64,000 nucleotides of DNA from Perna viridis (Eukaryota): NCBI GenBank assembly GCA_037379345.1, contig CM074512.1, positions 46,376,001 to 46,440,000 on the forward strand, given 5' to 3'. The notes under the pieces were generated by a model. The model was not told the origin of the DNA. It made no database searches and saw only the letters and a program-made list of their open reading frames with translations. A program made the translations under genes and the position numbers. Positions 870-23,900 of this stretch are shown one piece after another. How positions within the stretch are numbered: the stretch's first letter is position 1; every line of letters begins with the position of its first letter.

Positions 870-1990
870 TTATTCCCCCTCTTATACTCACATGTACAAC
901 AAGATTTGTTTCTTCTATATTTTATTAAAATTCATATTAACTGTTACATTCGTCAGGAAGTCTTCTTGCTGTACGAGTATCGTTGGCATCAAGTGTATTT
1001 TCCACTAAGTGATCTCAATTTTACCTTCACTCCCTTTTTCCCCGGTAACATGACTTCTGGTCTTTGGACTTGGTTTTCATTGTATATCCCATATAGCTCA
1101 TGCTATTTCGGATTGAATATCCTCTCATTATATAAGGTTGGACCGTAGATCAATTTTGTAACTTTCTTGATTTATTAAGGTCGCTGTTTCTTATGCAAGG
1201 ACTTCTGCACGGTGTTTTACTCTGGTTTATATTGTATTTAATATCCTGACGCTGTGTCACTTTTTTACGTTCTTAATACATCTGCTCGATCTTTGTTCTG
1301 GATTCCTTTTTAAACTGTTCCATTTATAGGCGTCACATATTCTGGACCAACAACACGATACTTATATATTTATAATGAGAATATTTTGTAAAGAGATGCG
1401 AGATAAATATCCTTACTTACTTCATCCATTTTGTGGGCTATCACGCTGGCAAATGGGTGGACCCACGACATGAAGTGGTCGTCCAAGTATCCCCTGGGTA
1501 CGTCTAAAGCAAGGGGATCGTCTGTCGGATGTATGAAAAAGTTTTCGTCAGCTTGGATCTTGGGTAAGTTTTCTTGAGTTTCATCCTGGATCGATTGGCG
1601 TATCCCTTTCATCGGAATATAATGTTCTTGGCATAGTCCTTCATTAAAGTATCTTGTTTTTTTTTCTTTCCTAAACGCATATTGGTATAGTTCCGTCATC
1701 AAAGTATCGTAGTCCGATAAACAAGTTTGCATTGGTTCTGTCTTCCTAAGGTTATCTTTTTCTGGACAGGATGTATACGTGGACTATATTGGTCTGCTTG
1801 CATGGTTCTCGTAGCCTGATAGACGGCTCTGCAGTGATCCTTGTGATGGTCTAGAATAAGGAGTACACCTGGTTTCTTTCCGATGGGGTAGATCAACTGA
1901 AGTTTGGTATCCATGACTTTTTTTCTAAAATGACGTTTCATATATATCTTCTTGCTAAGATCATCTTGCATTCTGGACAGGTCGCGGACA
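870..1990 (-). mobile_element. Maverick/Polinton-derived segment, left arm of foldback unit 1
   Basis: ~890-1340 is the reverse complement of ~5330-5960, and ~1440-1590 of 4470-4610. ORF 1370-1732(-) carries QENLPK..DENFFIHPTDDPLA.DVP.GY.DDHF.SW.HPF.SVI, the N-terminus of the ATPase at 4470+, then is deleted. Confidence 0.75.
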
Positions 1991-2149
1991 TGTTGTAACC
2001 AAAAATGATAACAATTCTATTTGGCTTTTACTTTTAAGACTATTTTTTTTAAAGTCTTCTCGCTGATATTCCTTCCATACTCTTACCCCTCCCTTTTGGG
2101 CTATGTTTCAGTCTACTCCCCCTTTCTTTCTTTTGACCCTTAATATTGA

Positions 2150-2330
2150 CACTTGACTCTTACTCTTTACACCAACTCTTGACTCTTACTCCCGATTCTT
2201 GACTCTTCTCACGACTCTTTACTCCAAACCTGGACTCTTTACTTCAAATCTTGACTTTTTCTTCCAACTCTTTACTCTTTACTCCCACTTTTGACTCTTA
2301 CTCCTGATTCTTGACTCGTACTCCATTATT
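2150..2330. repeat. Degenerate short-period repeat (ttgactc/tttactc)n
   Basis: Repeated ttgactct/ttactc units visible directly. Confidence 0.7.
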
Positions 2331-2652
2331 TCTGACCGAGAACATATAAAAGGGCCATTATTAAAACACCCATTTCCTAATACATTTATTAACCAACTAG
2401 ACAGAGAAAACATTATATATTATTCTATTGTCTTCATTGTTGTTTCATTAGTATGAAAAGTGTTTTAATGTTAATGTGAGTGTTTTGTTACAATAACTTA
2501 TTTACAGCTGTTGCATAAAATTTAGGTGTCTCCGCATACTGCACCATATCATCATTATTCTACAAAATAATCAAGACAAAGCTGCCATCATCATGTATAT
2601 TGTTAACTTATGAATATAACATTAACGCATATGTGAATACAAAAAAAATTAA

Positions 2653-3054
2653 GTAGCTGTCTTTGTAAGAATCATGCAAAATCTGAAAAAAAGTGATACA
2701 CCCCCAAAAAGGCTACATATTTTTATTTTTGTAATAAAGTTGTTTTATGGGTCTATATCATGAAATGTGTAATTATTCATTCAAGTCTGCCTGCTCTTAG
2801 GAGATAATCAACATTGAAAATCCAATAGATTCTATTGTATTTTACCGTCATTTACAGAGTTATCTCCCCTAATTTTGAAATCTACAGTGCATTCTATATA
2901 TTTTTTTATCTCCTAAGAGCACAGGTGGTTATATGAAAAACCACATGTTAATTTCTGTTTACTATGACATTTCAATCAAAATATCAATAAAAAAAACATT
3001 GTAGGCTTTTTACCCATGAATCACATTTTGCATGATCCTTAGCTGGAGTGCTAC
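2653..3054. mobile_element. Non-autonomous DNA transposon (MITE), TTAA-type, Kolobok-like
   Basis: Imperfect TIRs ttaa|gtagc..taagaatcatgcaaaat and attttgcatgatcctta..gctac|gtaa. A second partial copy lies at 7762-8000. Confidence 0.6.
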
Positions 3055-4469
3055 GTAATTGTCAACTGGAGAAGATATTTGTTCAATATTTGATTTATTC
3101 CTGGGAGCGAGCTGTCATTGTCATATTTTCTTTTATCTGAATAAAAGGCTGTATGGATTTGTTTCTCTTCTGTTTCCTTATGCGATCATGTTTAAATTAC
3201 ATGCCTTTGTAATTGATTGTGAACCTGATGGGTAGCTTTCATTTTTTTAAAGCAACATCAACATTCTGATTATCAATGACTGACAAGGAGTTATCAGTTT
3301 CAAGTACAGCATTTGTTTTTTTGTCCTTTATAACGTTTGAAAATTCAGAAGATTGTTGGATATCAGTGGCATTATCATTTCAAGTAAAATTTCATTATTT
3401 TCAGGAATGACTATATTCGAAAGTAGTTTAGATGTTTCATGGAGGGTACATTATAATGTGTTAATGTTGAAACACTTTTCCATCACCCAAGTTTAACAAC
3501 TTCTGTATTGGGTCAGATTGCAATAATGTAGATGCAAATGTCTTTCTTGTAGAATGTTATACCTTTATTCCCGTTATCCCCGTGTGTGATGCCATACTCT
3601 TCATCATGTTTCCTAGTTTATTTTTGCAAACAGGTTGATGACTATATAAAATTGAACAGCTCTTTTCGGTCGTTTATGCATGTATGGGCGGATCTCGGAG
3701 CTCCTAAACTCGATGAACGGCCGAAGGCCGTTCATGTAATGTTTGGGAGTGGAGACATGCATGAACGATCGAAAATAGCCGTTCAATCCTTATTATTCTA
3801 TCCGACAGTCAAAGTTACCCAGTTAAGGCCTCAGTCGGTTATATTGATACCCTGTGTTTATGTTTACGCTTCAATACACACACATTCCTTTGTACACGTA
3901 TGGGAGCGCGGACAAGTATTTACACTTAATCGGCTGCACAATAACAGTGAAGGCGGTATGGACGAATTGATAGTTGGCATTGAAAATACGAGATGAAACA
4001 GGAATAAAATTATTAAGGAATTACAACAAGGAAGAAGGAAAATTACAATAAGGTGTTTTCAAGGGTTCAGTCAAGACTCAGTTAAAAGTTCTTTCCCCGA
4101 GCTGAAAATTACTCTGTAAACAAACTAGACCGGTATAATCAGTGTGCATGTAATAAACTATTCTTACGGCTATATTATGCTGTTCAGTTCGTTGCCACAC
4201 TCTTTTGAACTACGCGGCCGCCATATTGGTTTCAAGTTGACTGACGTTCATGCATGTATGAACGATCTGGCGAAGTTCATGCATGTATGTTATCAATTTC
4301 TGATTCAAATAGTGTTATATGAAAATTTGATGAGACCTGTACTGAAAAAGATAGTGACCTTTTTAAAACAAACTAAACAATGTAAAAAATATAACTTATC
4401 TAATATTTTTAATTAAAAAAAACTAAGATAAGTTTGAAAGATTGATACCATTGAATTCAATATTTTCCA

Positions 4470-5035
4470 ATCCAAGAAAACTTACCCAAGGACCCAGCTG
4501 ACGAAAACTTTTTCATACATCCGACAGACGATCCCCTTGCTTTCGACGTACCCAAGGGATACTTTGACGATCATTTCATATCGTGGGCCCATCCTTTTAC
4601 CAGCGTCATAACAGGACCCTCCGGAAGTGGAAAAACGATGTTTTGTACGCCGCTTCGTACAAAACATGAAACACATGATGATGTCTAGATCCAATCGAAT
4701 ATGACGTGTACCAGACGATTTGTGGAATAATGGAGGGTGTCGACTTTGTACAAGGAATCCTCGAACTTGACAAGTGTCATGTTGATCAGAATCTTTTCAG
4801 CAAAAACAAGTATCACTGGACCATCAGTCTGAATGCTCCCTACTTTATTCTGTTAAAAAATCCCAAAGACGTATCACAGGCCTTGACCATAGCCCATCAA
4901 ATGTTCCACAAAAAGACAAACTACTTTTTGAAATCGTACGAGTTTGCCACCGCCTAATCCTACGGATATTTACTGATTGACATGAAACAGGGTACTCCTG
5001 ACAAATTGAGATTGAGAAGCAACATTTTCCCATGG
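4470..5035 (+). pseudogene. Decayed Maverick/Polinton (adintovirus-type) A32/FtsK-like DNA packaging ATPase
   Basis: Across frames: HPFTSVITGPSGSGKT (Walker A, ~4590-4637) ... QNLFSKNKYHWTISLNAPYFILLKNPKDVSQALTIAHQMF...YFLKSYEFATA*SYGYLLIDMKQGTPDKLRLRSNIF. This matches Polinton ATPase motifs (QNLF, TISLNAxY, KNPRD, YGYLLID, LRxNIF). The Walker B region appears deleted; stops and frameshifts are present. Confidence 0.85.
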
Positions 5036-7664
5036 GGAATTCAGGATGTGCTCTTGGATGAGGAAATGTATAAATAAAGATAGAAAAGGAGGTCATTTCT
5101 TGACCGACTCGCAAAGGAGATGGACGCAGTCGGACAGTAAATTGACAAGATAGTCCCCTGTCGTGGGTTTCATTTAGAAGAGGTCATCAGTCGTGATGCC
5201 ATACACGTGCAATTGACGAGAGAATGTGCACAATGCAAACCAAAGAATGAACTGACAAAAGAATATAAGGCCCCCAACAGACCTCGTGATAAATCAGCTG
5301 GAAGAAAGGAAAAAAAACGACCAGAAAACAGATGTGACGCCTATAAATGGAACAGCTTAAAGAGAATTCCAGACCAAAAATCCATCAGATGTATTAAGAA
5401 CTTAAACATGTGACACAACGTCAGGATATTAAATACAAGTGGAAACCAGAGCAAAGCACCGTGCAGAAGTCCTGGCATAAGAAACAGCGACCTTAATAAT
5501 TCAAGAAAGTTACAAAATTCGACTAGATGAATTATATTGATCTACGGTCCAACCTTATATAATGAGAGGATATATAATCCGAAATAGCATGAGCTATATG
5601 GGATATACAATGAAAACCAAGTCCATAGACCAGAAGTCGTGTTACCGGGGAAAAAAAGGAAGTGAAGATCAAATTGAGATCACTTAGTGGAAAATACAGC
5701 CTTGGTGCAAACAATACTCAGACAGCAAGAAGTTTCATATGAAGACCAAAAAATGTTCGCGGAAACATAAGAAGATCGGATCGTGAAAAGTGTTACTAAA
5801 TGGGAAACTAAGACCGGTAATGAAGAACGGGTTATGGAACCGACCCTGACGCAGAACCCGGATTTAATTATAAAAAAAAAACAGACGAGTTCCCAACGAA
5901 TGAAACAATTAATATGAATTGCAAATTAAATATAGAAGAAAAAAATCTTGTTGTGTAATAAAACTATACTAAAGAAAGACCTTACAAAAAAGGGGTAGCT
6001 CAAAACCGATAACACATATTAAAACCGTTAAGAACCGTTAGCGATAGCATATGAAACATAAAAAACTTTCACAAGCGTTTACTTAATAGAGCCTCATAAC
6101 ACGTTCAAATTAAGTTTGAGTGTAATTGACTTACAAACGTCGAGAATACTACAGTAGTAAAATGACAAAAATTCTTATAACAAACAAGCGATTATACAAG
6201 GCTGGCTCAAATTTAAAGAGAAAAAATGGGGAGCGTAGGAAACAAAGTTTAACCACGAATAAAAATATGGGGAGAAAAACAATATCCGTAAGTCAATGGT
6301 TTGCCCAATAGACCCCCATAACACAGGTTAAATCAAGTACACTGAAAGTATAATTGAAAAAAAGACATCGGTTTACCCGATAGAGCCCCCATATAAAATG
6401 AAAAGTTATAGTGCGTCTGTAAACATTTCATAGGTGATGAAATAGTCAACTATTTAAATTTTATTTGAATAAAAGTAAAAGGCAATACACCATTCAAAGG
6501 CTCTTAATGTTCCGACGGTAAACATCAATATTGCATGAAAAGAGTTTAAAACTACAATTGTCAGTATAACCTTTAGACGTAATTGAGGATAAAGACCCAA
6601 ATAACAACATTAATCAAATAATTCAATTATTCAATTATTCAATTACTTAATTATTCAAACTGAATTATAGAAAAGATATTAAATATAATTAAAAAAAAAA
6701 TTAAAACAACGATAAAAATTAATTAATTAACTATGAACAAATTGGTTTCATGATGCCAATGGATACTTCATAACGATCCATGAGTTCATGATGACGACCG
6801 TAAATGCCTACTTCCTACTAACGCAATGTTTTGAAAACTAATGATCAATGACTGTCTTCAGAACTTAACATGTCTGGTCTTTGTCCCTGGCACAACATGT
6901 TATAATTTCCTTACAACTGTAATGTATCCATAAAGCACAATTAAAAGCGGTTAAAAGTTTTAAACATCTGTCTAATCCGTGAGACATCTACTTTAGTTTT
7001 TAAATTGTATTACACAATCAATTTAAGGTTATCACACAAAGAAAATTAAATAAAACAAAAATAATTAAACAACACCAAAAAAAATTGATAAAAAATCAAA
7101 CATTCGAGTTGCGTTTATAACATAAATGTATTTATAAAGTACAATACATTAAAAAAAACCCGAAAGATGGACATCTGCTGTACACCGTGAAAACATCTAT
7201 TCAAAGTGAATTACCCAATCAATTTGACATTATTACATAATGACAATGAAATTACAAATTGATAATTTATGAAAATAATTAAAAACAATTACAGATAATG
7301 AAATATATAAATATAAAAAGCAATACAAAGAAAGAAAGATAACTCTAGTCATAATACACCCCTTCTTTTATACTTATCTGTTTATAGAACGCCATACTAT
7401 TAAATAACACTAATTCGGACACTTAATAGGGGTACCTACGGGGATCGTTACCGTCCTCCTGACCTTCAAGATCCCCTTCCTAGATCAAAGGGTCTTCATG
7501 ATCCCCTTTCTTGATCATGGGTCCTCCATCTTAGCCCACTTCCGGTCACTCAAGATCCACTTCCAGTCCCGTCCCCTCCCGGTCCATTCTGGTCCACGGC
7601 CACCGGATCTGACGTCATTCGCATGCATACTGGGGCTAATCCCCTTAATCCCCCGAAAACTACT
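4470..7664 (+). mobile_element. Maverick/Polinton-derived segment with putative terminus, right arm of foldback unit 1
   Basis: Contains the ATPase and is directly homologous to 18140-20955. It ends in a GC-rich block with cacttccgg/gacgtca motifs and ACTACT (7659-7664), the complement of the AGTAGT Polinton end. Confidence 0.7.
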
Positions 7665-7761
7665 AATCATTTGCAACATCTATACTACTACAGTAACTAT
7701 ATAGAAAAGTTTCCATTTATATAATACCATTTCTATTTGTTATTCGCTCAAATGATATTAA

Positions 7762-8000
7762 GTAGTAGTCTTTGTAAGAGACATGCAAAATTCTGTCGTG
7801 ATACACACCAAAAAATGCCAGACATGTTCATGTTTGTTATTAAATTGCTTTATAGGTCTGTATGATGAAATGTAGAATTATATACTTAGGAGATAATCCA
7901 TATTGAAAATCCAATATTTCTATTGTATTTTATTGTCATACACGGAGTTAGCTCCGTTAATTTCAGTACATTCTATATAATTTCCATCTCCTAAGAAAAA
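7762..8000. mobile_element. Partial copy of the 2653-3054 MITE
   Basis: Direct similarity (ttaagtag..ctttgtaaga..catgcaaaat..gtgatacac..cttaggagataatc..attgaaaatccaata..tctattgtatttt). Confidence 0.65.
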
Positions 8001-8883
8001 GGGTTTTATGAAATCTTGATAATAAATAATGCTCCGAGTATAAATTAAAGGGATCTACACTCTCTTATAGCGCAATCAACGGAAGTAACAAGGACAATTA
8101 AACTGATCCTAATTTTAAAAAAATAATTTGGATAAGGTTATATGTTCCTTGTTTTGCTTAATATTCTAAACTGTCGTATGACCTCATTTTGACATTTGTT
8201 TTAGCTGTCAAAGAAATTCATATTCATTGATTTTATTCTGACAGCTTCTGTTAGGATTAAGGAATAAAACAAAAACATTGTAGCTTTAACGAAAATTTCA
8301 ATTATAAGAAACTTTGTATTCATGATTGATCTTTCTTGACACTTAGATCAATAGAATGTAATTGAATAGGCTACGGATTAAGGGTGTAAGTAATTCGGAA
8401 ATGCATCTATCTTTCCTCTGATGCATCCCGAAGCCGAGTAAAAAATATTTTAATCTTTTTAATTGTGAAGATAGGTTATATGTAGGTATGTTTTATCTTT
8501 TGAATTCTCGTTGTAGCAAAACACTTCTGGAATTGAATAGGTGATATTGGCAGTTTTGTGAAAACAGCTAAGAACTCTTTCCACTAAAAATTTCTGAAGG
8601 AATACCATTTTCTGACAGAGGAAACACTGAGCCTGCAGAATACATTTTTCCTGTGTAGTGACATGAATTTTTATGGATTTCTGTTCTCGATTCTGATAGT
8701 GGAGTGTATGATGAATGTGCATGGTAGGACAGTATTTTCCGTATTAATATATGCTAAAATAGTTTCAATGCATTTTATCTTTCATATGGAGTTTTTACGT
8801 AAGACATTAACTATAAATGATAAAAAAAATATATATTTTATCTTTGTCTTTTTATAAAATATGGAAATGGAATTAAATAATTT

Positions 8884-8985: not shown

Positions 8986-10033
8986 AAGGTTTAAAGTTTG
9001 ATTTTTATTAATGACTAATTTTGAATAAAAAAAATGAACCATTAAAAATAAAATATGAAAACAAAACAGTTTTGAAATACACAGTTTTTTGGCAAGGAAG
9101 CCTGTTTCTAAATTAACTTATTGCATGTTTTTTTAAAAGGGGGAACCAAAGGTGACAATACTGGGTCTTTTTTTTTTGTTTGTTTTTTAACAACTAATGG
9201 AATATTATCACACGCTGCAATGAAAATATCCATTTTAAGACAAAATAACTATAATTGACATATGCATGAAACCATGGCTACTAAGATGTAGTATGTTTTT
9301 TGTTTTTGTTTTTTGTTCTTGTTATGTATGATTTCAAGTATTCTAACACATCAACAGATTTTGTGACTCTTTTCCCAGCAAATATTTTGACCTTATTTCC
9401 TGTGACTTTTCTTATGACTTTTCTTTCCGATGACTTTTTTTCCAGTGACTTTTTTCCCTACCGAATTGTGACTTTTCTTGTGACTTTTTTTCCTGATTCG
9501 CCAGCGACACCCGTCGCGTTGCAAGTGAATAAAATGCAATAAGCATAAAGTTCAGTGGGTTGTCAATCTTAGATGTGAAATCTTACGGAAGATACAAATG
9601 CTTCTTGCCACAATTGTAAGATGGAAACTTCATATCGGCCAATCAAATTGTAATGACAACTTCAAAACTTCAATAGTGATGAAATCAACTACAGCTGATC
9701 ATATCCTTGTCTAAGATTCTATCGTCCTCGCTCTAATAAAAAAATTACTGTACATATCATGTACACCATAAGTTTTAGATGTTGGTAAAATTGGAAAGTG
9801 AAATTAAGTTTTGATTTCATTTTTGTAACTGATTAAGGTCTAAGTATCAAGCAGTCAGTACCGGTCGGTCCTTTAATTTCAATTTCATTTAGGTATTACA
9901 AATGCAAGTAATCCTTGAAATGGGGATAATCCAGAGATACTAAATACATTGTATATGAAATAAAGCCGTGTGTTTGCGACCCGATTTATGAAAATATATC
10001 TTTGGTCAATTTATTTATTTATTCCTTTAACAG

Positions 10034-12247
10034 GGTACTCTTTCTACAACTGCTACGCCACTGTCACCAGAACAGGATTTCAGCAATTTACCGGACCCTC
10101 TAGCTCAATTGAATGCATAAACAAATGCCTCGAAGTTAACACAATGTATGTATACAGCGGGACGGTGATAACAGGAAATCCTGTAAGTTCCTAAAAGGTT
10201 TTGCGTACTTATCCTTTGGTGTTATTTTATTCGGTTATGAATATGCCACTTTTTCCAGCATAAAAAAATAAATCATCTGTAAATTACACTGAACATGTCA
10301 TCGCTCTAAATCAAAAGCTATCCTCCATCGTATTATACAGTTGCATCTGCAAAAATCATTAAAAAACTCTTAAAGTGTTTCAATCAAATATGAACGGACG
10401 TGTGGATAGTGGTTTGTCATTAAATGGTCATCAAAAGATGCACATAACAAAAACCATCTTCCAGTAAATAATATTAACAGAATGAACATAATATATTTTT
10501 TCACATTTTCAGCCACTTTTTACATGCCATTGTTCGTTTGTAATGGATCTACCGGACGAAAGTATATTGCCAATAACAGATTGTGGGAGTAATCCATGTC
10601 CTCAAGTTACCTCAGATATATGTGGTGACATTGATAAAATGGCAGTATACTTAATTGGTAAGTGGAAATAAACATTTTTTGATCGCAAGACTTGTTATTA
10701 ATTTGCTGTACTAGTTCATAAATGGAAATGGTTTCGTTGAACTTGAAGCGGAACAAGTGTTCTGTCTGGTTAATTGGTTGTCTTACAGTTAAGATAAATC
10801 ATGTTATGTATAATCTGATTTGGTACTGTGGCGTCATTGTCGATTGTTGCACAGTCTAGGATACGAATAATATCGAACGACGCCTTGGCTATGAAAAAAA
10901 TTTTCATCAATTCGGACTAGAACTCACTGAAAACAATATGGGTAATTTTTCTATCTTTTTATTTACATGTTAGATGGACTCGCTTGCTTTTTTGGCACTG
11001 TTTCGATCAAGTTATTTCACACACAAAATAAGAGAAAAACAAAAAACAATTAATAAAGAATGCAATTGTATTACTTTTAATTAAGTAATTACCGTAAATT
11101 GGTTAGTATTCATACTGTTGTAATATGTTTAATTATAATCAGTAGGTTGTAGTGGAAACAGTTCGTATCTTCTTGATAATAATGTATATTTATAAATTAA
11201 CATACAATTTCGTAAGCACTTAAAAAAATAAAAGTATAGTTAAAGTTGTTCCACTGATCATATAGGACTGAATTTATGTCGAAAGTTTGTTTAATAAAAC
11301 CGTTGTTTTGATCTCTTCAAATCTATGTTCATTAATTTTAATATGGTGATGTACCACCGGTCTCCATCCGTACAGCTACTTCACAAAGTATGACAACACC
11401 TGCAGTGCCACAGATAACTACAAATAGTTCACAAAGCACGACTACAGCTGTTGTGCAACAGATAACTACAACTGGTTCACAAAGCATGACTGCAGCTATT
11501 GTGCCACAGATAACTACAACTGGTTCACAAAGCATGACTGCAGCTATTGTGCCACAGATAACTACAACTGGTTCACAAAGCATGACTGCAGCTGTTGTGC
11601 CACAGATAACTACAACTGGTTCACAAACCTCAACCTCAGATGATTCGGTTACTATGACCATAACTGATTCAAGTGTGACCACAACAAGCTCATCAAATGT
11701 ACCTTACGCTGATATGGCTCTGACTGATTCGTCGATAATTAACGAGATTTATACATCTTCTGAATTCATTAGTGATTCTCGAAATCTTTCACTGACTTCA
11801 CTAGTAAAATCTATTGTAACGGAAAATTTGCCATTTATTGAAACAACATCAGAGGAATTATCGACCACAGATTCCAGTCTTAAAAATGATTATGCTTTCA
11901 CTACTGATATGTTAAACTTCGTAAGTTCTTCAACAAACTGTGAGTGCCCTTGTTCAATCGTAAAACATAAATGGGACTTCCTCCGAAATCTGTCCTTAAC
12001 TAAGGACAAGCTCAGACTTTTCTTAAAGGACTATCTTAATGAATTACAGAATGGAATAGCAATTAATAAGAAGCAAACATCATTCTACATTTACACTAAA
12101 ATATCAATGCGGGATGATCGAGTATCTGCGATGGCGACCGGGTGTTTTGGTATTGTTGTCGTCAGTATTCCAGTTGTTCTTATAGTTTGTAGTGATATTC
12201 TAAAGTGTTTGATGTGGAAATCAAGAAAAAAATCTAATCTAGGTTGA
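10034..12247 (+). CDS. Spliced WSC-domain, Thr-rich mucin-like single-pass membrane protein (exons ~10034-10164, 10513-10657, 11376-12247; 5' end uncertain)
   Basis: Phase-compatible GT-AG exons give GYSFYNCY..ECINKC..YVYSGT|PLFTCHCS..DCGSNPCPQVTSDICGDIDKMAVY (WSC 8-Cys pattern ending CG..VY). This is followed by 16-aa Thr repeats, CECPC, a SMRDDRVSA juxtamembrane motif, TM helix FGIVVVSIPVVLIVC and a basic tail. The start may be MKIYLW (9988) or an upstream exon. Confidence 0.75.
11381..11627 (+). repeat. 48-bp coding tandem repeat (~5 units, TAAIVPQITTTGSQSM)
   Basis: Seen directly in DNA and protein. Confidence 0.9.
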
Positions 12248-12529
12248 GCAATTAATATCTTTTAACATATATGTTTATTGACAAAATATTAAATATGATA
12301 TAAAAAAATAAAATTGATAAAAAAATAGCAAACCAGTTCTTTCAAGTTTCAACAATATTTGTAAAAATAATTAAACTAGGCCAAAAAGTAGTCAGAAAGA
12401 CCAATAATGTAACTACCACTACCATGCTATTCATCATTGAGTTAGAGTTCCTCATTTAAACTGATAGACAATTGACAAATGTATGATGATTAAAAAAATG
12501 GAAAAGTACATGTGTTCATTGTTTTGACT

Positions 12530-12765
12530 AATTATGAGCAACTCGGTGGGTATTTATAGAAAAGCAGAGGATGCTAACCCTACCGGTGCATCTGGTCCAT
12601 GCTAGACCCCAGTTTTTAGTGGAGTTCGAGTTGCCTATTTATTTTTGTTACTTTGTATGTATTTTTTTTCTTTTTGTTATTTTATGTTCTTTGTTGTGTT
12701 TGTCTGTTTTCCATGTCTGGTCTTTGTCCCTGGATTACATTCCTTTGATTTCCGATAGATCTCAA
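12530..12765 (+). mobile_element. 3'-end fragment of the Penelope-like element
   Basis: Matches 61690-61930 (tatgagcaactcgg..aaagcagagga..ccctaccggtgca..ggtccatgct..ttccatgtctggtctttgt). Confidence 0.75.
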
Positions 12766-13578
12766 GTAACCTCATACTTCTAACTGAGTTACAATACTCC
12801 ATTATTATGGTAGGAAATGGTTGGGTGTAGATAATATGAAACCGGTATCCGGAAATGGTAGCGATCGTCAAATATAGGAAGAAGTCATTCAAGTGAGGAT
12901 GTCCGTTTAATGTAACAGTTTTATTTACACTTCGATCATAATGAGGCCCGTATTGAAGTATCAAAGTAGATTACTTGTTCCAAAGGTGGGTATTGAGACA
13001 CAGTTCCTTTCACGTGGGCTTGCTTCCAATATGCAGCCCGACTAGCATATAAACACAAAAAGATGATTCCAGATTTGGGGATGCCTCGCTTCAACTCATT
13101 GTTTTCAAATAAAATCGAATATATTACTATTTACTGCTCAGCAATCACTTGACAAATGATGATTGTATCTAATAAATAAACACAAGTATCACCATTATAT
13201 AACACTTCTAATCAAATAAATACAAAGATTTGTACATCCAAACTCTATATTTCTACAACCGCCTGGTTAGAAAGTGAAACAACTGTAACATTTGACATGA
13301 CTAGACAAACCAGGTGTTTGCATAAATACGCATAGACATGTGTATGATATGTTTAAAAAAAGGTATGTTGTAGCGATCTTTGGATCGCTTATGATATTGA
13401 CCAGGGAATCAGTTTAGGATTTAGATTAAGCAATTCGATTATTTAACACCGAGCGACATTTTTGAGAATTTATGAGAATATAAATGCCAAACCCATGTTA
13501 AAATGTGTACTCGGAAAAGTACTTGACTCGGAAAAGTACTTGATTCGGAAAAGTTCAAGTATTTATTACTTGGGGTCA

Positions 13579-15849
13579 TTACTGGTAATTTCAATAGCCC
13601 ATGTATTGATTTTTAACCGTTTTTTTTTATTGTGCTTTATGAATACATTACAGGTGTAAGGACGTGTTGTGCAATGTTTATCTCTCAGACTTTAATTTTT
13701 ATCATTGTTTTAATTATTTTTCTTTAATTATTTTTAATATTTTTTTGTATTTAGTTAATACAACGTTAATAACTTTTGAATTGTGTATTGCCCTTCATTT
13801 CAGATTTTTATTGTCGACCATTTCATCACCTATTACGGACACACTCAACCTTTTCATTGATTATATCCGTGTTGTGGAGCTCTATCGAGCAAACCGATTT
13901 CTTTTTCATATTTTCAATGTTTACATGTCGCGTGTACTTGATTTGACCCGTTATGGGGTTGTATTTGGTAAACCATTGATTTGTTGATTTTTTTTCTCTC
14001 CATATTTTCATTCGTAGTTTGTATCCTACGCCTTTTTTTTGTTTAAGTTTGAGACTTGTGCGCTCGTTTAATGTTTTTCTTTTGTTATTATAAGGAAATT
14101 GAACTTTTTACTGCTATAATATTTTCGATATTTGCATGTCGCGTACGCCCTTTGAACGTGTTATGAGGCTCTATCGGGTAAACCGATTTCTTTTTCATAC
14201 TTTCAATGTTTACATATCGCGTGTACTAGATTTGACCCGTTATTGGGGTAAACCATTGACCTACGGATTTCTATTTTTCTCTCCATATTATGGCATATTT
14301 TCATTCGTGGTTTGTTTCCTTCGCCTATTTTTTGTTTAAGTATTGTATGATAGGTTTTTATAAGAAGATTGAACTTTTTACTGCTGTAGTATGTTTTCAA
14401 GTTACTTACATGCAAACTTTGACCCGTGATATGAGGCTCTGATAGTAAATAAGTGTTTCATGCTGTCGTTAACGGTTTTGAGCTACCCTTTTTGTAAGGA
14501 GGTCTTTCTTAAGTATAGTTTTATTACACAACAAGATTTTTTTCCTTAAATATGTTATTTACAATTCATATTCATTGTTCCATTCGTCGGAGTGTCGTCT
14601 GTTTTTCAAACATAAAGTGTTCTTCTTCCCCTTCAAATAACACTTCACGATCCGATCTTCTTGTGATTCTGCTTTGCTATGAGTAGTCTTGCCGTCCGAG
14701 TATAGTTGGCGTCTAGGCTGTTTTTCCACTCTATTTAATCTTCACTTCCTTTTGTTCCTCGATTTACATGACTTCTGGTCTTTGAACTAGGTTTTCATTG
14801 TACATCCCATATAGCTCCTCCTTTTTTTGATGAACTATCCTCTGTAACTTTATTGATTTATTAAGGTCATCGATTCTTATACAAGGATGCACGATACTCC
14901 GCTCTGGTTTCCACTCGTATTTGATATTCTGACGTTGTACGTTTTACGTTCTTAATACATCTTAATTACTATCGTTGTTCCGAAATCCTCTCTATGCACT
15001 TCCATAAATAGGTGTCCCATCTGTTTTTGGTCGACGTTTTTTCTGTCATCCAGTTGGTCTACCACGAGGTCTTTTTGGGCTTCACTTTCTTTTGAGTTCA
15101 TTCTTTGGTTTACAGTTTGCACATTCTTTTGTCCATTGCACGTGTACAGCATCACGACTGGTGACTTCTTCTAAGTGAATTCCTCAACAGGTGGAACTAC
15201 CTTGTAAATATTTATTGCTCCGGGTGCGTCCATCTCCTTCGCGGGTCATTCACGACGTGAACCAGTATTGTTTTCCATTTCCTTTTATAGTCATCAGCGG
15301 TCGACTGTCGGGTACATAAAAAAGTTTCCATCTGGTGGTTTTTTTGGGTTGCAATTCTTGAGTTTCATTCGGTATCTGGATTTCGTGTTTTGAGCGCATT
15401 GGTTGTATACGGGTCTTAGAGTAGCCCGTTCATCAAAGCATCTTGGTGTATTTCTGTCGTCAAAGCATCTTAGTTTTACACAGTCATCAAAATATCGTTG
15501 TCCTATAAACCAGGTTGCATGGGTCCTATCTACTTGCATCTGCTGGTGCTCGACTGTAGGAGTAATGTAGCTGCTGCTACTGCTGCTCGAATAAGGGGGT
15601 GGGGGTATTCCAGCTGCTGCTGCTCGTAATTGGGGAGGGGTATTTCTGCTGCTGCTTTTCACATATGGGGATATTTCTGCTGCTGGTGGTCGTATTCGGG
15701 GTCATTCTCCCTGCTACTCCTATCTGCTGTTGCTCGAATATGAGCGTATGAGCGTATTCTAGTTGTTGCTGGCTGCATCCGGGGTCATTCGTCCTGATGC
15801 ATTCGTCTGCTGCAAACGGTCAGTTTGCTCGCTGGGTTCGTTTTTGTTG
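13579..15849 (-). mobile_element. Polinton-derived segment, left arm of foldback unit 2
   Basis: Reverse complement of 17663-20508 along its length; homologous to the unit-1 arms. Confidence 0.85.
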
Positions 15850-16359
15850 TGTTTACTTTTCAAGTTAAAATCGGAAGGTCAAGATTTAGTTTTTTTTCGT
15901 AAGTTTATTTCATGTTGTTTTCTCCTAAGTAACTTGACGTCTGGTACTTTAAGTGGGGTATATATATTTTGTTTTTGTTATTTTTCATAAAGTTAGGGCT
16001 TAGATCAATCTTCTCTATATTTAATTTTTATGATACTATATTACGCGCTTCATTGAACTTCAATTTCAGATCAAATCCGTACTGTTGAAATCCTCCTTAC
16101 CATAAAACTTAATCTTTTTTTTTATTAGCATTCATGTAGTTGTCCGCTTCTTCATCCTTTCCTTGCGTCTAACACTTGTTATTGTTCGTTACAAAACTTT
16201 AATCTGACTCAAACTATAGCTTTACCTCCTCATATTACAACTATTTTGATATTGATCTTTTCTAAACGTAAACCATAACTTAACCAACGAATTAACTCAA
16301 CGAAGCCTCAACCCATTCCAAGATACTAATTCTATTTAGGAGTCTAGTCTTATCCTTTG

Positions 16360-17655
16360 ACCCTAACACTAACCCTAACAACTAACCCTACCTATAACCA
16401 CTAACCCTAGCACTAACTCAACCATAACCCTGGACAAACATCAACATCTGAGCCAAACCTTAAACATAACCCTAAGCCTAACCCAACACTTAACCATAGG
16501 CTTAACCCTTGCCATAGATTTGATAATATATTTAAAGGTTGAATCTAACAACTTTCTTGATACTAGACCTGAAACTCTAACCCTAACCATAACCCTAAAC
16601 CATCCCCTACTGACCTAAGCACTATACATAACACTAGGCGTAACCCTATACTTAACCATACACTTAACCCTAACCCTTACCAGTAACCCTAACCCCTAAC
16701 CCTTACCTGAACTTAACCATAACCCTGGACAAACATCAACATCTGACCCACACCTTAAATATAACCCTAAGCCTAACCCAACAGTTAACCATAGACTTAG
16801 CTCTTGCCATAGACTTGATACTTTATCTAAAGTTTGAGTCTAACAACTTTCTTGACACTAGACCTTATCTGAAACTCTAACCCTACACCTAACCCTAAGC
16901 CATCCCCTACTGACTTTAACTCTACACTAGGCGTAACCCTGTACTTAACCATACACTTAACCCTAACCCTTACCAGTAACCCTAACCCCTAACCCTTACC
17001 TGAACTTAACCATAACCCTGGACAAACATCAACATCTGACCCACACCTTAAATATAACCCTAAGCCTAACCCAACAGTTAACCATAGACTTAGCTCTTGC
17101 CATAGACTTGATACTTTATCTAAAGTTTGAGTCTAACAACTTTCTTGACACTAGACCTTATCTGAAACTCTAACCCTACACCTAACCCTAAGCCATCCCC
17201 TACTGACTTTAACTCTACACTAGGCGTAACCCTGTACTTAACCATACACTTAACCATTACCCAAACCCTTACACAACCCTAACACAACCCTAATCACTAG
17301 CCCTAATCCGAACTTAACCATAACCCTAAACAAACATCAACATCTGACCCCAACCATAACAAAATACCCTAAGTTTAACCCAACACATAACCATAGGCTT
17401 AACTCTTGCCATAGACTTGATCCTATATCTAACGGTTGAATCTAACAATTTTCTTGACACTAGACCTTATTTGAAACTCTAACCCTATACCTAACCCTAA
17501 GCCAACCCCTACTGACCTTACCTCTATACCTAACACTAGGCGTAACCGTATACTTAACGATGCACTTGACCCTTACCCTAACCCTAACACAACCCAAATC
17601 ACTAACCCTAACCCTAATTCGAACTTAAACATAACCCTAGACAAACATCAACATC
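16360..17655. repeat. Telomere-like (TAACCC-rich) satellite, ~293-311-bp units x~4.3
   Basis: Anchor ac(t/c)aaccataaccct..acaaacatcaacatct at ~16416, 16711, 17004, 17312 and 17623. Units are built from degenerate ctaacc/taaccc hexamers; two adjacent 293-bp units are near-identical. Confidence 0.9.
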
Positions 17656-17662
17656 TTACCCC

Positions 17663-20600
17663 CAACAAAACGAACCCAGCGAGCAACACTGACCGTTTGC
17701 AGCAGACGAATGCAGCAGAAAGATTGACCCTGGATACAGCAGCCAGCAACAACTAGAATACGCCCATACTCGAGCAACAGCAGATAGAAGCAGCAGGGAG
17801 GATGACCCCGAATACGACCACCAGCAGCAGAAATACCCCTCCCCAATTACGAGCAGCAGCAGCTGGAATAACCCCACTCCCTTATTCGGGCAGCAGTAGC
17901 AGCAGCTACATTACTCGGGAAGTCGAGCACCAGCAGTTACAAGTAGATAGGACCCATGCAACCTGGTTTATCGGACATCGATATTTTGATGACTGTGCAA
18001 AACCAAGACGTTTGATGAACGGGCTACTCCAAGACCCGTATACAACCAATGCGCTCAAAGCACGAAACCCTGATTCCGAATGAAACTCAAGAATTGCAAT
18101 CCAAAAACCCAGCAGATGGAAACTTTTATATGTACCCGATAGTCGACCGCTGAATGCAGATGACTATAAAAAAAATGGAAAAGAATACTGGTTCTCTTCG
18201 TGAATGACCCGCGAAGGAGATGGACGCACCCGGAGCAATAAATATTTACAAGGTAGTCCATGTAGAGGAATTCACTTAGAACAAGTCACCAGTCGTGATG
18301 CCGTACACGTGCAATGAACAAAAGAATGAACTGACAAAAGAAAGTGAAGCCCTGGTAGACCAACTGGAGGAAAGATGTTTGTTGTTTGTTTGTTGGGGTT
18401 TAACGTCGGAGTAGCAATATTTCAGCTATATTCAGACGATGAACATGAAATTGATGATAAAATGAACATGAATGATGATGATGAAATGAAAAAGGGATGG
18501 GACACAAGGATAATGGGGTCGACAAATTTTGATTGCCACTGGAAATAGGGAGAGGTGGGTAGGGTCGGGCAATTTAGCCTCCTGTGGCAGAGCCCTATGG
18601 TTCCTACTCCGGGAGAATACCACAATAGGGATCTTTAACGTGCGAGGAACGTGACATCTTTCCCAACACGGTGCACCACTATGGTTTGCGGTCAGGTTTT
18701 CCGTATTATAGCCTGACAACCCCAGCATATAACACGCCAGGGATACCCCATTCCAGTTGCTTTGTGGGCAGAGCGCCCTAGCCCCCGGCTAGTGTTCTGA
18801 GCACTATTTAGTCGCCTTTTATGACAAGCTTAGCGCTGCTGCAGGCCTATTCTTTTAACACCCGGACCTGCACGGGGCACTGGAGGAAAGAAAAAAGTCG
18901 ACCAAAAACAGATGTGACACCTATAAATGGAACTGTATAGAGAGGATTTTGGAACTAAGATAGTGCGGATGTATTATGAACGTAAGACGTACAACGTCAG
19001 AATATCAAATACAAGTGGAATCCAGAGCGGAGTATCGTGCATCCTTGTATTAGAATCGATGACCTTAATAAATCACGAAAGTTACAAAAGTTCAACTAGA
19101 TTAATCATTTTGATCTACGTTGCCAGAACCTTATATCGTGAGAGGATAATTCATCAAAAAAAGGAGGAGCTATATGGGATGTAAAATGAAAACCTTGTTC
19201 AAAGACCAGAAGTCATATAAACCGAGGAACAAAAGGAAGTGAAGATTAAATAGAGTGGGAAAAACAGCCTTGATGCCAAAGATACTCGGGCGACAAAACA
19301 ACTCATAGTAAAGCAGAATCATAAGACGATCCCATCGTGAAGTGTTATTTGAAGGGGAAGAAGAACACTTTCAGGAACAGACCATTGAACAGGACCCGGT
19401 TTCGAAAAACAGACGACACTCCGAAGAATGGAATAATGAATATGAATTGTAAATAAAATATAAAAGTAAAAAAATCTTGTTGTGTAATAAAACTATACTA
19501 AAGAAAGACCTCCTTACCAAAAGGGTAGCTCAAAACCGACAACACTATTAAAACCGTTAGCAACAGCATGAAAAACATATTTACAATCAGAGCCTCATAA
19601 CACGGGCCAAGGTTTGCGAGTAAGTAACTTGAAAACATGATATAGAAGTAAAAACTTCAACCTCCTTATAAAAAACCTATCATACAATTCTTCAGCAAAA
19701 AAGGGGCGAAGGAAACAAACCACGAATGAAAATATGCCATTATATGGAGAGAAAAATAAAACTCCATAGGTCACTGGTTTACGCCCATAACGGGTCAAAT
19801 CAAGTACACGCGACATGTAAACATTGAAAGTATTAAAAAAAATCGGTTTCCCAATAGAGCCTCATAATACGTTCAAAAGTTGTACGTGACATGCAAATAT
19901 CGAAACTATTATAGCAGTAAAAAGTTCAATCTTCTTACAATAACAAAAGAAAAACATTAAACGAGCACACAAGTCTCAACCTTTAACAAAAAAGGGCGTA
20001 GGAAACAAACTACGAATGAAAATATGGAGAGAGAAAAAAAATCAACAAATCAATGGTTTACCTAATACAACCCCATAACGGGTCAAATCAAGTACACGCG
20101 ACATGTAAACATTGAAAATATCAAAAAGAAATCGGTTTACCCAAAAACAGCCCCATAACACGGATATAATCAATGAAAAGGTTGAGTGTCCATAATAGGT
20201 GATGAAATGGTCGACAGTAAAAATCTGAAACGAAGGGCAATACACCATTCAAAAGTTATTAACGTTCCAAATGTAAACATCAACTGTAAACCTTACAATT
20301 ATCAGGATAATCATTAGTGGTTAGTCAAAATTTCAAACTGAATACAAAAAATATTAAACATAATTAAACAAAAATTATTAAAACAATGATAAAAATTTAA
20401 GTCTGAGAGATAAATATTGCACAACACGTCCTTACACCTGTAATGTATTCATAAAGCACAATAAAAACGGTTAAAAATCAATACATGGGTTATTGAAATC
20501 ACCAGTAAAATGGGAAGTTTTAAACATCTGTCTTATCCGTGAGACATCTATTCAAAATACACAATCAATTGAACACAAAGAAAATCAAATCAAAATTTAA

Positions 20601-20955
20601 CATCTATTCAAAGTGTCCATTCAATTTGACATTATTACACAAAGACAATGAAATTACAATTAATTTACAAAAATAATTAAAAAAACAATTAACGTATATG
20701 AAAATGTATAAAAAAAAACAAAGAAAGACAAGTCACAATACCCCCTTTTTATACTTACCTGTTTATAGTATACTGCATAATGATACTAATTAAGACACTT
20801 AATGAGGATACCTATGGAGGTCGTTTCCCTCCTAACATTTAAGGGTCCCCTTTCTAGGTCAAGGTCCCCATGTTCCCTTTATTGGTCCTCCATCCACTTC
20901 CGGTCACCCAAGGTCCACTTTCGGTCATGTCAAAGGTCCACTTCCGGTCACTTAG
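17663..20955 (+). mobile_element. Polinton-derived segment, right arm of foldback unit 2, with subterminal cacttccggtca repeats
   Basis: Inverted to 13579-15849. 18140-20955 is directly homologous to ~5070-7570. The ATPase core is deleted right after PADGNFYMYP. Confidence 0.8.
18376..18878 (-). mobile_element. ~510-bp non-autonomous retroposon (SINE-like), copy A
   Basis: 13-bp TSD actggaggaaaga (18363-18375 / 18879-18891) and a (CAAA)n tail. The empty site is present in the opposite arm near 15040-15060. Confidence 0.92.
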
Positions 20956-23900
20956 TCTTAGACAAGCTGTCATCACTAGGTCATATGACGATCAATACTA
21001 GATCATTAGTCATCATATTGCCCAACCAGGTGTCCGCTATGTTGAAAACTGATCCTTACAGATCTTCCGCTTGAGTGCACATTTACAATAGAAAAGGTTC
21101 ATTAAAGTGATCTATATGTACGTCTATGACTACTGATTCGATAGAAAATTCACCTGTTTACGATTTTATAGTAATTTTAACCCCAAAAAAGAAAATCTAA
21201 GCGCCTAATGTGATCAGATATGTTGGTTAAATTATTATCTTAATTATGAATGTATAAAATATTAGTTCATAATGCCGGTGTGCTTTGAATGAAAATTCTG
21301 TTTGATAGATACTCTGACCAGTTTTCAAGGGATAGGGGTAATGGTTTTAACACTTTTTGAAAATTCCTTCTTGCAAATTAGCTTTTTGTGGTTTGTCATG
21401 TAGAAAATAAGATTATCGATCGAATGATATGAAATTTGAGTCATTTTAATTGAGCTTTAACTTAAAGAGTCGAAATTATGCGACTTTTTACCGGAAAATC
21501 GAAAATCCAGTTTTTGCCATTTTGGATAAATTGTGACTACAAAAATCGCCACAAGTCGTCAAATGAACCCCAGAAGTATTATTTGTATTTATCCTAACTA
21601 GAAAATACCAAAAAAGCCATTCTTTTCTGAAGTATAGATTCTCTAGGGGTTTTGACATTGAAAAATATGTTAATTTAGGCGATTTTTCTGTGGGGTGGGG
21701 GTATATTTTTTTTCATTTTACTCTAAAACCCTAAGTGTTACCGCAACTTTCTTGATAGCAGAAGTTTGAAGAATCAAAAAACATAAAAAATGAATTTCAG
21801 CCTCAACGAGGTATAAAAGTAGTAAAAAAAATACCAAAATGTTTCAGTTTATTTTTGGCGACAAAAAGATTCGTGAATGAGAGGTATAAGGATAGCTAAA
21901 ATCATATTTTGGTTGATGAGTGGGAGTGCACGGGGGATATCTCAGCCCACGTACTAATAAATTTATTTGAAACTTGATCTACATGTCATATTGCCAAAAG
22001 AAGCGTATTGTTTTGATTAGAAAAAGTTTGGTTGAATGGTCCTTACATCCTAGAAACAAGTACCACGGATGGACAGACTGGAAATATACGTACGATTCGC
22101 CGCGTAGAGAAAATACTTCATTTATTTGTCTCAATAAAACAAATAATACCAGTGATTTGATCATGGCAACAGCATTTAATGTTGTAATATGGGGAAATAC
22201 GCCCCTAAGACAACAAGCAATGAAGAACGCACTTGAAAGCGGTGTATATTGCAAATAATTAACTAAACAAGACTGAAATAAAAAGTTGAATAAGTAATCA
22301 TCATAAATTGCAACTATCAGTATGGCTACCAAGGAAACTGTATTTTTAAGAATTTGCTGTTTCATCGGCGTATAAAAAAGTTGACCGTAGTTCATTTCCA
22401 TGAAGTGCTAGCTTCATGACCAAAATATGTGACTGGGTCGGTCAACTTTACACACCGATGAAAATGTAGCATTCAATATTTATACATTTTTTTGTAACTA
22501 CATCTGGCGTTCCTCTTAATTTATTTTTTTTCCATTTTGAAGAAATGCATAGAAAATAAGCAATATGCAAAACGAGTTTTAGACCAAACCTGGCACTTTC
22601 TGTCGTAAAGTGATCAAATTTGTACGTTTGTACCGTGCTCAACTCTAATATATACGCCGTATTCAAATGACTTCGTTTTTCCAGGAACTTGTAAATTTCT
22701 GGTTTAAACGCCTACAGTAAATAATACTAACCCGGAAAAGTACAATATGTATAAATATATAGATTACTGTATTTATTGCTTTAAACGAATGATAAGATGG
22801 AGAAGTACTATATCGTTTTGTGCATTTTCCTCTTGTTTCACGATTTAAATGGTAAACATTAATTATTTATATATATATATATATATATATAACTATTAGT
22901 TAATTGATAATATTATATTTAAAAGAAAGTGCTTCGTTTTGGCTTGCCTTTTTGACAAAAACTTTTGAGTATCTGAAATAGAAAGTCTAAAAATATTTCT
23001 AAATATGTTTATATTAGTCTAGGAGAAATGAATATAAATATGCTTTACGAGAAATTTTTTGATGAATGTCATGCACCTCCACTTTATCTCGATACACAGA
23101 TTTACGGGAATTGTTTTAATGAATGTCACCTCCAATTTATCTCAATACACAGCTTTACGGAAATTTTTTTTATGAATGTCACCTCTAATTTATCTCGATA
23201 TATACGTATGTTTTCGATTTTTTTTTCATGCGACTTATAATCGATTTGTTCGCTAATATTCAAACACAGATATCATTCCATCGAAGAGCTCTGTTATAAA
23301 ACTAGTTTAGTGGATAAAAACAATAAATCATGTTGGAATAGCATACTCAGTAGGTTACATATAGAGAGGCATTTAACGATTATATGGTTCTCCCTCCTCC
23401 AGTATAATTTTCTTTACGTTTCAGTTCGAGCTTTAAATACAACAAGCTACGGTAATTTTAATCGTAACAAACAAAATAACGGCAGATATTCTCGAGGTAG
23501 GTAAACTAAGTTGTTTTTTTTTCTTGACCTGTTGAAAAGCGTAAAAAGGAATGTATTTTTTTTACTTGTATAGAACTCTGTTCAATAAAACCGTGTACAC
23601 TTTCATACATTGAACACAAAATTGTTCTCTCTTGCTTTTTAAACGATCATCCATTATGGTATACCGCTTTCCGTCCAGCTGTCCTTACCCATTTTAAACG
23701 AGTTTGAAAGTGTTTTGTGTCCCTCCTTTCTGAGTTATGGAACATCAGACACCAAAAACTAAAATTGAGCTAGCTTATGTCGTGCGGTATAGCCCAGTTA
23801 CTTATCTAACTGTTGACTTTAAATAAAAAATCTGGTACGATAAATGCCTGGATTCTTATAAGCATTAATAATTCATATCAGCTCATTTTCCAAGTAACGA

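What the first reader, a model, noticed from the sequence alone, without database searches (positions are those of the whole stretch)
13579..20508. 7-kb quasi-palindrome with ~2.3-kb arms: candidate integrated copy-back (defective) Polinton genome
Seen: the arms are highly similar (roughly 90% by eye), share the same ATPase deletion, and both point outward towards the element terminus. A retroposon sits in only the right arm, so it post-dates arm formation. Inference: template switching during protein-primed strand-displacement replication would give end-core-end snapback molecules, analogous to defective viral genomes. This would be a non-autonomous giant-TIR Polinton class and a possible source of long hairpin dsRNA/siRNA against the helper.
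Basis: partly seen in the sequence, partly recalled or inferred. Interest (0 to 1): 0.7.

Follow-up and report, generated by a model that had tools for sequence, protein, structure and literature searches.

The report
Decayed fold-back Polinton remnant pair
This 7-kb stretch is an old, eroded mirror-image relic of a virus-like jumping DNA element (Polinton/Maverick type) in an invertebrate genome; a second, independent mirror-image relic lies 6 kb away, which hints that such elements fold back on themselves as a habit, but the ends that would prove it are lost.

Summary
The inverted arms are real: 13579-15849 and 17663-20508, 92.6% identical. Both lack the same ~520 bp of an A32-type packaging ATPase gene, and a retroposon with a 12-bp target duplication sits in the right arm only. 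The claim of a complete end-core-end genome is not supported. The inverted repeat stops at least 420 bp short of the family's end, neither side keeps a Polinton terminus, and no target-site duplication was found.

Two things are new. The arm sequence is a dispersed repeat family: about 60-370 times single-copy depth on the outer arm and 8-32 times on the inner arm, in three samples. A second inverted pair from another subfamily (76-80% identical) lies at 896-7664, and the arms within each pair are sisters (39:0:1 sites).

Best reading (0.55): one old non-autonomous long-arm derivative of a Polinton family. Copy-back replication is only one of three ways to get such arms. Long gene-bearing Polinton TIRs and TIR extension are already in print. 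The small-RNA idea and the full-span assembly are untested.

The parts
13579..15849 (-). Left arm of element B: decayed 5' extension of a ZnF-ATPase gene, ATPase domain missing, downstream decayed coding-like region, non-coding outer part with a ~290-bp internal direct repeat; outer end truncated
17663..20508 (+). Right arm of element B (92.6% identical to the left arm over aligned columns)
20509..20951 (+). Continuation of the right copy towards the family end, without a left counterpart; ends in 23-bp repeats and lacks the last ~90-110 bp seen in copy A
18375..18878 (-). SINE-like host retroposon in the right arm only, 12-bp target duplication at 18363-18374 and 18879-18890; four more copies in the window; strand inferred from the simple-repeat tail at the low end
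   Evidence: no Rfam match up to E 1
15288..15298 (-). ATPase-domain deletion junction in the left arm (about 520-530 bp missing relative to copy A-right)
18146..18165 (+). The same deletion junction in the right arm
15850..16363 (.). Non-repeated part of the spacer; multicopy in the genome (7-18 times single-copy depth over 15932-16250) and continuous with the left arm in divergent contigs
16364..17662 (+). 293-bp satellite, about 4.2 units, rich in degenerate TAACCC on one strand only (54 matches versus 0 on the other strand); units 2 and 3 are 293/293 identical, other pairs 85-89%
13371..13510 (.). Cut fragment of a different, very high-copy repeat next to the left arm; not part of the arm
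   Evidence: tables 2 and 7
896..2030 (-). Left copy of neighbouring element A: start of the ZnF-ATPase gene (zinc finger ~1950-2000), two internal deletions, outer end truncated at 896
4473..7664 (+). Right copy of element A: decayed A32-like ATPase (~4500-5062), downstream region homologous to the B arms, and a putative terminus ending in (ACT)2 at 7659-7664

Best explanation
Element B is one old, dead insertion of a non-autonomous fold-back derivative of a Polinton/Maverick family. An ATPase-deleted sub-lineage carried the same end region, from inside the ZnF-ATPase gene to the terminus, on both sides of a short core. It was probably replicated and integrated in trans by an autonomous relative (inferred). 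The arms were identical or nearly so at insertion. Each has since drifted by about 3.7%; the right arm gained a retroposon, the left lost at least 420 bp and the right about 100 bp of the outer end. Element A is a second, independent insertion of the same architecture from another subfamily, of similar age. SHOWN: arm anatomy, shared deletion, sister relationship, multicopy family, second pair. INFERRED: single insertion, trans-mobilisation, and how the arms became long.
For: (1) Four related copies lie in 21 kb as two outward-pointing inverted pairs. Informative sites support (A-left,A-right | B-left,B-right) 39 times against 0 and 1 in 327 columns; within-pair distance 8.0% and 9.5%, between-pair 20-21%. 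(2) Both B arms share the ATPase deletion. At 31 ungapped sites where the left arm differs from most other genomic copies, the right arm shares the left arm's letter at 6, against 0.6-1.2 expected by parallel change (binomial P 0.001 to 3e-5). (3) Arm sequence is a dispersed family: outer arm 61-371, inner arm 8-32 times the single-copy flank depth in runs X12, X1, X4; also present in organism B (X9). (4) The neighbouring host exons are paralogs at only 65% identity and their flanks score no better than shuffles, so A and B (76-80%) did not arise by the host gene duplication. (5) Precedent: ~2-kb gene-containing TIRs and polB-less mobile polintons in butterflies (bioRxiv 10.1101/2025.02.07.637071, sections 12 and 13 read); TIR extension by recruiting internal sequence in Galileo (PMC3573991, passages). 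(6) Weak, post hoc: the hexamer after A's putative terminus (7665) recurs at 841, ~50 bp outside A's left copy; it occurs 3 times in the first 8 kb.
Against: No terminus motif and no TSD on B. The arms are asymmetric at both ends, and the left arm runs on into multicopy sequence at 15850 (table 8), so that 'junction' may be native sequence. No other locus with both arms was seen; no contig spans the stretch. The 2:1 arm-to-core depth expected of a symmetric family is not clearly there: site-level ratios 1.27, 0.99, 1.17 (15 versus 7 sites, P 0.4-0.7), bin-level medians 26/8, 22/13, 18/15; the two measures disagree, and the tool warns that summed contig depth is no copy number. At 25 of the 31 sites the right arm sides with the other genomic copies, so the arms share only a short common branch, as two insertions of one subfamily also would. 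No pPolB, integrase or capsid remnant was found, and no intact parent with gene context was recovered.
Confidence: 0.55

Rival explanations
1. Local inverted duplication in the chromosome: one already decayed, ATPase-deleted copy was duplicated in inverted orientation by fork fold-back or break repair. The palindrome never moved as a unit.
For: Ragged, asymmetric ends and no TSD; 6 of 31 derived letters shared by both arms could be decay before the duplication; about 4 bp of microhomology between satellite and arm at 17663 (by eye).
Against: It must have happened twice within 21 kb, in two subfamilies, at about the same time (8.0% and 7.4-9.5% arm divergence), and both times copied element sequence only.
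Confidence: 0.2
2. Two separate insertions of the same ATPase-deleted subfamily landed head to head (local hopping or nesting) and were later trimmed.
For: The family is abundant; 25 of 31 left-arm changes are not shared with the right arm; Polinton remnants cluster and rearrange at one locus in C. elegans (bioRxiv 10.1101/2024.01.15.575659, passages).
Against: Both pairs have the same geometry and are sorted by subfamily (39:0:1); independent insertions need not be outward-pointing, nor subfamily-matched twice.
Confidence: 0.17
3. One ancestral palindrome was duplicated in tandem with the neighbouring host gene, and arm-to-arm gene conversion then kept each pair similar.
For: A and B both lie 0.7-1.3 kb behind paralogous exons (13-226 and 12098-12321) and show parallel asymmetry (left copy cut outside, right copy cut inside).
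Against: The coding paralogs (65%) are more diverged than the neutral A/B sequence (76-80%); flanks share nothing above shuffles; B belongs to a dispersed family at 82% identity or more; arm divergence is not significantly patchy (chi-square 13.6, 8 df, P 0.09).
Confidence: 0.04
4. Assembly artefact (fold-back chimera or mis-joined haplotypes).
For: No piece spans the structure; satellite units 2 and 3 are 293/293 identical while others are 85-89%, which could be a local assembly duplication.
Against: The arms differ by 160 substitutions, 32 gaps and a retroposon with its own TSD. Contigs 96-98% like the window bridge the left arm-spacer border in X1 and X12 (records 8, 14), and the left flank is held with 0-1 differences in three runs.
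Confidence: 0.04

Closest known systems
Polintons/Mavericks and their eroded copies (PMC8097293, passages read)
   Same: A32-like packaging ATPase remnant; one putative (ACT)2 end in copy A; heavy erosion (96% of vertebrate loci are degraded in that survey).
   Different: No pPolB, integrase, protease or capsid remnant found; arms of 2.3 kb or more exceed the 46-1,447 bp TIR range reported for vertebrates; no termini or 6-bp TSD on B.
Butterfly polintons with ~2-kb gene-containing TIRs and polB-less mobile derivatives (bioRxiv 10.1101/2025.02.07.637071, sections 12-13 read)
   Same: Kilobase inverted arms that include element genes; loss of replication genes.
   Different: There the TIRs hold hexon and adenain and flank a gene-rich core; here the arms hold the ZnF-ATPase region, make up about three quarters of the element, and everything is dead.
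Foldback-type transposons, Galileo two-TIR copies with extended TIRs (PMC3573991, passages)
   Same: Long, internally repetitive inverted arms, short non-coding middle, arms that take in internal sequence. That paper also says inverted-repeat expansion has been reported for Polintons, citing three references, among them Jurka et al. 2007 (not seen).
   Different: Galileo is a P-superfamily cut-and-paste element with a transposase; this sequence derives from a Polinton-type element.
Copy-back / snap-back defective viral genomes (search listing and abstract starts only); hairpin derivatives of protein-primed linear plasmids and adenovirus (recalled, no call)
   Same: One end region duplicated in inverted orientation around a short loop; loss of coding capacity.
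   Different: Defined by intact replication termini, a template-switch junction and helper-dependent replication; none of these is shown here.
Clustered Polinton remnants at C. elegans eri-6/7 (bioRxiv 10.1101/2024.01.15.575659, passages)
   Same: Several partial Polinton end fragments at one locus, in rearranged orientations.
   Different: There host exons were inverted between copies; here the inverted sequence is element-derived and each pair is subfamily-matched.

Membership tests
Polinton/Maverick | Packaging ATPase (A32-like) | tested here: met
   Met in neighbour A, deleted in B. Window fragment: Pox_A32 E 0.021; phmmer best E 2.7e-17, 442 relatives; 4 of 12 relatives scanned pass the Pfam Pox_A32 cut-off; tblastn E to 8e-50. 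That these relatives are Polinton genes is recalled; no gene context was obtained.
Polinton/Maverick | Protein-primed DNA polymerase B | tested here: not met
   0 of 94 stop-free stretches of 48 aa or more in 850-7700 and 13500-21000 hit any Pfam family at E 0.02 (5 of 99 stretches were left out: 4 scanned, 1 cut by the range end). Low power on decayed DNA.
Polinton/Maverick | Retroviral-like integrase, protease, capsid genes | tested here: not met
   Same scans. The only integrase hit in the window (41545-42354) belongs to an LTR retrotransposon.
Polinton/Maverick | (AGT)2 // (ACT)2-type end motifs at both termini | tested here: not met
   B has none at either arm end. A has (ACT)2 at 7659-7664 only; that hexamer occurs 5 times, and its complement 6 times, in the first 22 kb, so the motif alone is weak (motif from PMC8097293).
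Polinton/Maverick | 6-bp target-site duplication | tested here: not met
   None at B's inverted-repeat ends. A: a hexamer repeat at 841 and 7665 is a weak post hoc hint.
Copy-back defective genome | Same genomic end on both sides in inverted orientation | tested here: met
   Both arms cover the ATPase-to-end region and point outward.
Copy-back defective genome | Intact replication termini on both ends | tested here: not met
   Left arm lacks at least 420 bp, right copy about 100 bp, of the end seen in A; later erosion cannot be excluded.
Copy-back defective genome | Defined template-switch junction shared by several loci | tested here: inconclusive
Copy-back defective genome | Helper-dependent replication, interference or small-RNA production | not testable with these tools
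   No RNA run laid; 29 perfect runs of 21 bp or more (909 bp in all, longest 60) show only that a read-through transcript could pair.
Foldback-type (Galileo/FB-like) element | Long internally repetitive inverted arms around a short core | tested here: met
   Arms 2.3 kb with a ~290-bp internal direct repeat (71-79%), core 1.8 kb.
Foldback-type (Galileo/FB-like) element | Cut-and-paste transposase lineage and its TSD | tested here: not met
   No transposase hit, no TSD; the coding remnant is an A32-like ATPase.

The most novel reading that the evidence does not exclude
Polintons in this animal repeatedly threw off fold-back derivatives by template switching during protein-primed replication. 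These were amplified and integrated in trans as a satellite-like family, and A and B are fossils of two independent such sub-lineages: the integrated DNA counterpart of copy-back defective viral genomes.
Probability: 0.25. Interest if true: 0.7.

Novelty: new variant of a known kind. Interest (0 to 1): 0.42.

Why it matters
If outward-pointing inverted pairs are the rule for this family, Polintons have a fold-back parasite class whose arm-spacer junctions record errors of their replication. That replication mode is proposed but little tested, and the junctions would make it testable from genomes alone. Long hairpins beside host genes could also feed small-RNA silencing. This particular copy is a poor type specimen: old, without termini or TSD. 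Its value is the second independent pair next door and the evidence that the arm family is abundant.

Tried and rejected
No whole genome is held for this window, so genome-wide counting of inverted pairs and TSDs was not possible.

Searches for an intact parent with gene context failed: viral contigs with four queries gave no confirmed locus; a 19-nt motif in metagenome contigs gave 24 loci, all chance matches (GC 49-74%, no similarity beyond 24 bp); genome contigs gave 1 weak bacterial P-loop hit (E 8e-5). A word-based protein search with the ATPase fragment found nothing. The protein atlas gave no usable hit for the 135-aa inner-arm frame. PHROGs gave 0 families for 4 ATPase relatives; solved structures matched only the zinc finger. 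Rfam gave 0 matches up to E 1 in 13000-21500. Folding A's last 550 nt gave z -1.96, not informative. A motif search was at chance level.

Depth ratio of inner arm to spacer was tried as a test of a symmetric family and is inconclusive. Homology of 13480-13578 to the family end, and of 840-900 to A-right, scored no better than shuffles. Telomere fusion was considered for the satellite and rejected, because the repeats lie on one strand only.

Ten literature searches showed no paper describing a fold-back or copy-back Polinton class in their listings; the library lacks most subscription papers and Repbase reports, bioRxiv supplements were not available, and most hits were seen only as listings.
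Full report
1. Observation. Self-comparison of the 64-kb window (34% GC, no N) finds the inverted repeat at the stated coordinates. A global alignment of 13579-15849 with the reverse complement of 17663-20508 gives 1992 identities in 2152 aligned columns (92.6%), K2P 0.078 and 32 gaps, the largest a 515-bp insertion in the right arm. Divergence is spread along the arm (89-96% per 250 bp; chi-square 13.6, 8 df, P 0.09) and the longest perfect run is 60 bp. The insertion is a SINE-like retroposon with a 12-bp target duplication and an empty site in the left arm. It has 7 private changes in 386 columns against four other window copies, so it is younger than the arm split. The spacer is ~500 bp of non-repeated sequence and a 293-bp satellite of about 4.2 units with degenerate TAACCC on one strand only.

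2. Origin of the arms. A related copy at 4473-7664 (A-right) keeps a broken P-loop ATPase. Its C-terminal fragment finds 442 relatives by phmmer, best E 2.7e-17; 4 of 12 relatives scanned pass the Pfam Pox_A32 cut-off, and some carry an N-terminal C2H2 finger. These relatives hit A-right at E down to 8e-50 and the finger of A-left at E 0.001, but nothing credible in B. Both B arms keep the gene's 5' extension and then skip about 520-530 bp, the ATPase domain, at the same place. That this ATPase clade belongs to Polintons rests on my own knowledge plus the A32 match and one (ACT)2 end at 7659-7664; no intact parent with neighbouring pPolB or integrase was recovered, and none of 94 stop-free stretches in A and B hit Pfam.

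3. The ends. The right copy of B continues past the inverted repeat, collinear with A-right (20599-20931 against 7192-7573, 72% with gaps), and stops about 100 bp before the position of A's putative terminus. The left arm has no counterpart of these 420 bp or more, and 13480-13578 is not similar to them above shuffles. It sits next to a cut fragment of another repeat. No target-site duplication flanks the arm ends. So the stated coordinates do not delimit a complete element. The end motifs and 6-bp TSD that define intact Mavericks are taken from PMC8097293 (passages read).

4. A second pair. The same region occurs as another outward-pointing inverted pair at 896-2030 and 4473-7664. In the 327 columns shared by all four copies, 39 informative sites group the arms by pair, against 0 and 1 for the alternatives; distances are 8.0% (A), 9.5% (B) and 20-21% between pairs, and 23-24% over a longer three-way block. 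Both pairs lie behind paralogous host exons, but those are only 65% identical and their flanks are unrelated, so the host duplication is older than the A/B split. Two subfamily-matched pairs of the same geometry and similar age are the strongest argument that the fold-back shape comes from the element and not from one local accident.

5. Evidence from other samples. Fourteen public runs hold part of the stretch. The flank is held by one contig per run with 0-1 differences (depth 128, 7.9, 57 in X12, X1, X4). Against this baseline, summed depth is 61-371 times on the outer arm, 8-32 times on the inner arm and 7-18 times on the spacer start. The tool warns that this is no copy number; I read it as an order of magnitude, consistent in three studies. 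Organism B (X9) also holds the family. Contigs with 6 substitutions and 6 gaps in ~305 bp bridge the arm-spacer border in X1 and X12, and two more divergent contigs in X12 bridge it as well. At several sites the window's own letter remains at about single-copy depth (for example 15006, 15472, 15867), at others it is absent (for example 13874). X12 may be the window's source. No piece spans the stretch.

6. Are the arms sisters within the family? One search shows 40 of 426 variant sites; I dropped one in the flank, leaving 32 in the arm and 7 in the spacer. At the 32 arm sites the right arm has the letter of the other genomic copies at 25, the left arm's letter at 6 and a gap at 1. Six of 31 exceeds parallel change (P 0.001 to 3e-5), so the arms share a short private branch. 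This fits one element with identical arms at insertion, but also a duplication soon after insertion or two insertions of one minor subfamily. The arm-to-core depth ratio, expected to be 2 for a symmetric family, is 1.0-1.3 by sites and 1.2-3.2 by bins: inconclusive.

7. Mechanism. Most likely (0.55) B is a single old insertion of a non-autonomous long-arm Polinton derivative, later eroded. Within that, three routes are about equally open: a parent with long gene-bearing TIRs that lost its middle, copy-back during protein-primed strand displacement, or TIR extension by repair. Rivals are a local inverted duplication (0.20), two head-to-head insertions (0.17), tandem duplication with arm conversion (0.04) and artefact (0.04). 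On small RNA: the arms share 29 perfect runs of 21 bp or more, but internal promoters would give two sense transcripts that do not pair, so a hairpin needs read-through from one side (inference). No RNA data were examined.

8. Relation to what is known. Vertebrate Maverick TIRs span 46-1,447 bp and most loci are eroded (PMC8097293, passages). Butterfly polintons have ~2-kb TIRs holding hexon and adenain, and polB-less forms stay mobile (bioRxiv 10.1101/2025.02.07.637071, sections 12-13 and passages). Galileo copies extend their TIRs with internal sequence, and that paper notes reported inverted-repeat expansion in Polintons (PMC3573991, passages; the cited review was not seen). Polinton remnants cluster and rearrange at C. 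elegans eri-6/7 (bioRxiv 10.1101/2024.01.15.575659, passages). The anole survey found no non-autonomous Polintons (PMC3014272, passages). Passages of PMC6431247, PMC10294476 and bioRxiv 10.1101/2025.01.09.631634 added nothing specific. Ten searches showed no paper on a fold-back or copy-back Polinton class in their listings. Earlier notes of this scan report palindromic Polinton-ended elements in other genomes; these are unchecked AI notes, not tested here and not counted as support, but they suggest that better-preserved examples exist.

9. Verdict. Observation partly confirmed, interpretation partly supported. B works like a fold-back, non-autonomous Polinton derivative but fails the membership tests for an intact Polinton and for a copy-back genome (termini, TSD). 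New variant of a known kind; interest 0.42. The bold reading, a replication-made fold-back satellite class, has probability about 0.25 and would deserve 0.7.

Noticed in passing
window 36316-45937: Ty3/Gypsy-like LTR retrotransposon (LTRs 36316-37122 and 44986-45937, 96-98% identical; RT, RNase H, integrase hits) with a retroposon inserted in pol (40733-41253). A sense-strand frame at 43715-44179, between integrase and the 3' LTR, carries a BTB_2 (KCTD-type) domain (E 8.7e-16): possibly captured cargo.
   Followed up: partly
   Followed up: yes
window 16665-17250: Two satellite units are 293/293 identical while all other pairs are 85-89%: a very recent tandem duplication or an assembly duplication.
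   Followed up: partly
window 2156-2325: 20-bp tandem repeat just inside A's left copy, in a position like that of B's satellite (upstream of the ZnF-ATPase gene); the two are not similar above shuffles.
   Followed up: partly
window 2640-3060 and 7749-8013; 3651-3787; 49621-50258; 56245-56393: MITE-like or hairpin elements with weak or short inverted repeats.
   Followed up: no
window 9964-12247 and 13-226: Multi-exon host gene with a Thr/Ser-rich 48-bp repeat and a C-terminal hydrophobic stretch; its last exon has a 65% identical paralog at the window start. The cysteine-rich exons look WSC-like by recall but gave no Pfam hit.
   Followed up: partly
window 29783-31345: Intact 520-aa frame with coiled-coil and central hydrophobic segments and only weak Pfam hits (E 0.02 or above).
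   Followed up: no
window 48179-48862: 227-aa frame on the minus strand that resembles a Mutator-like transposase fragment by recall; no Pfam support.
   Followed up: no
window 12524-12759, 27029-27143, 54628-54755, 55816-55963, 61694-61930: Five copies of another short dispersed repeat (72-88% identical).
   Followed up: no
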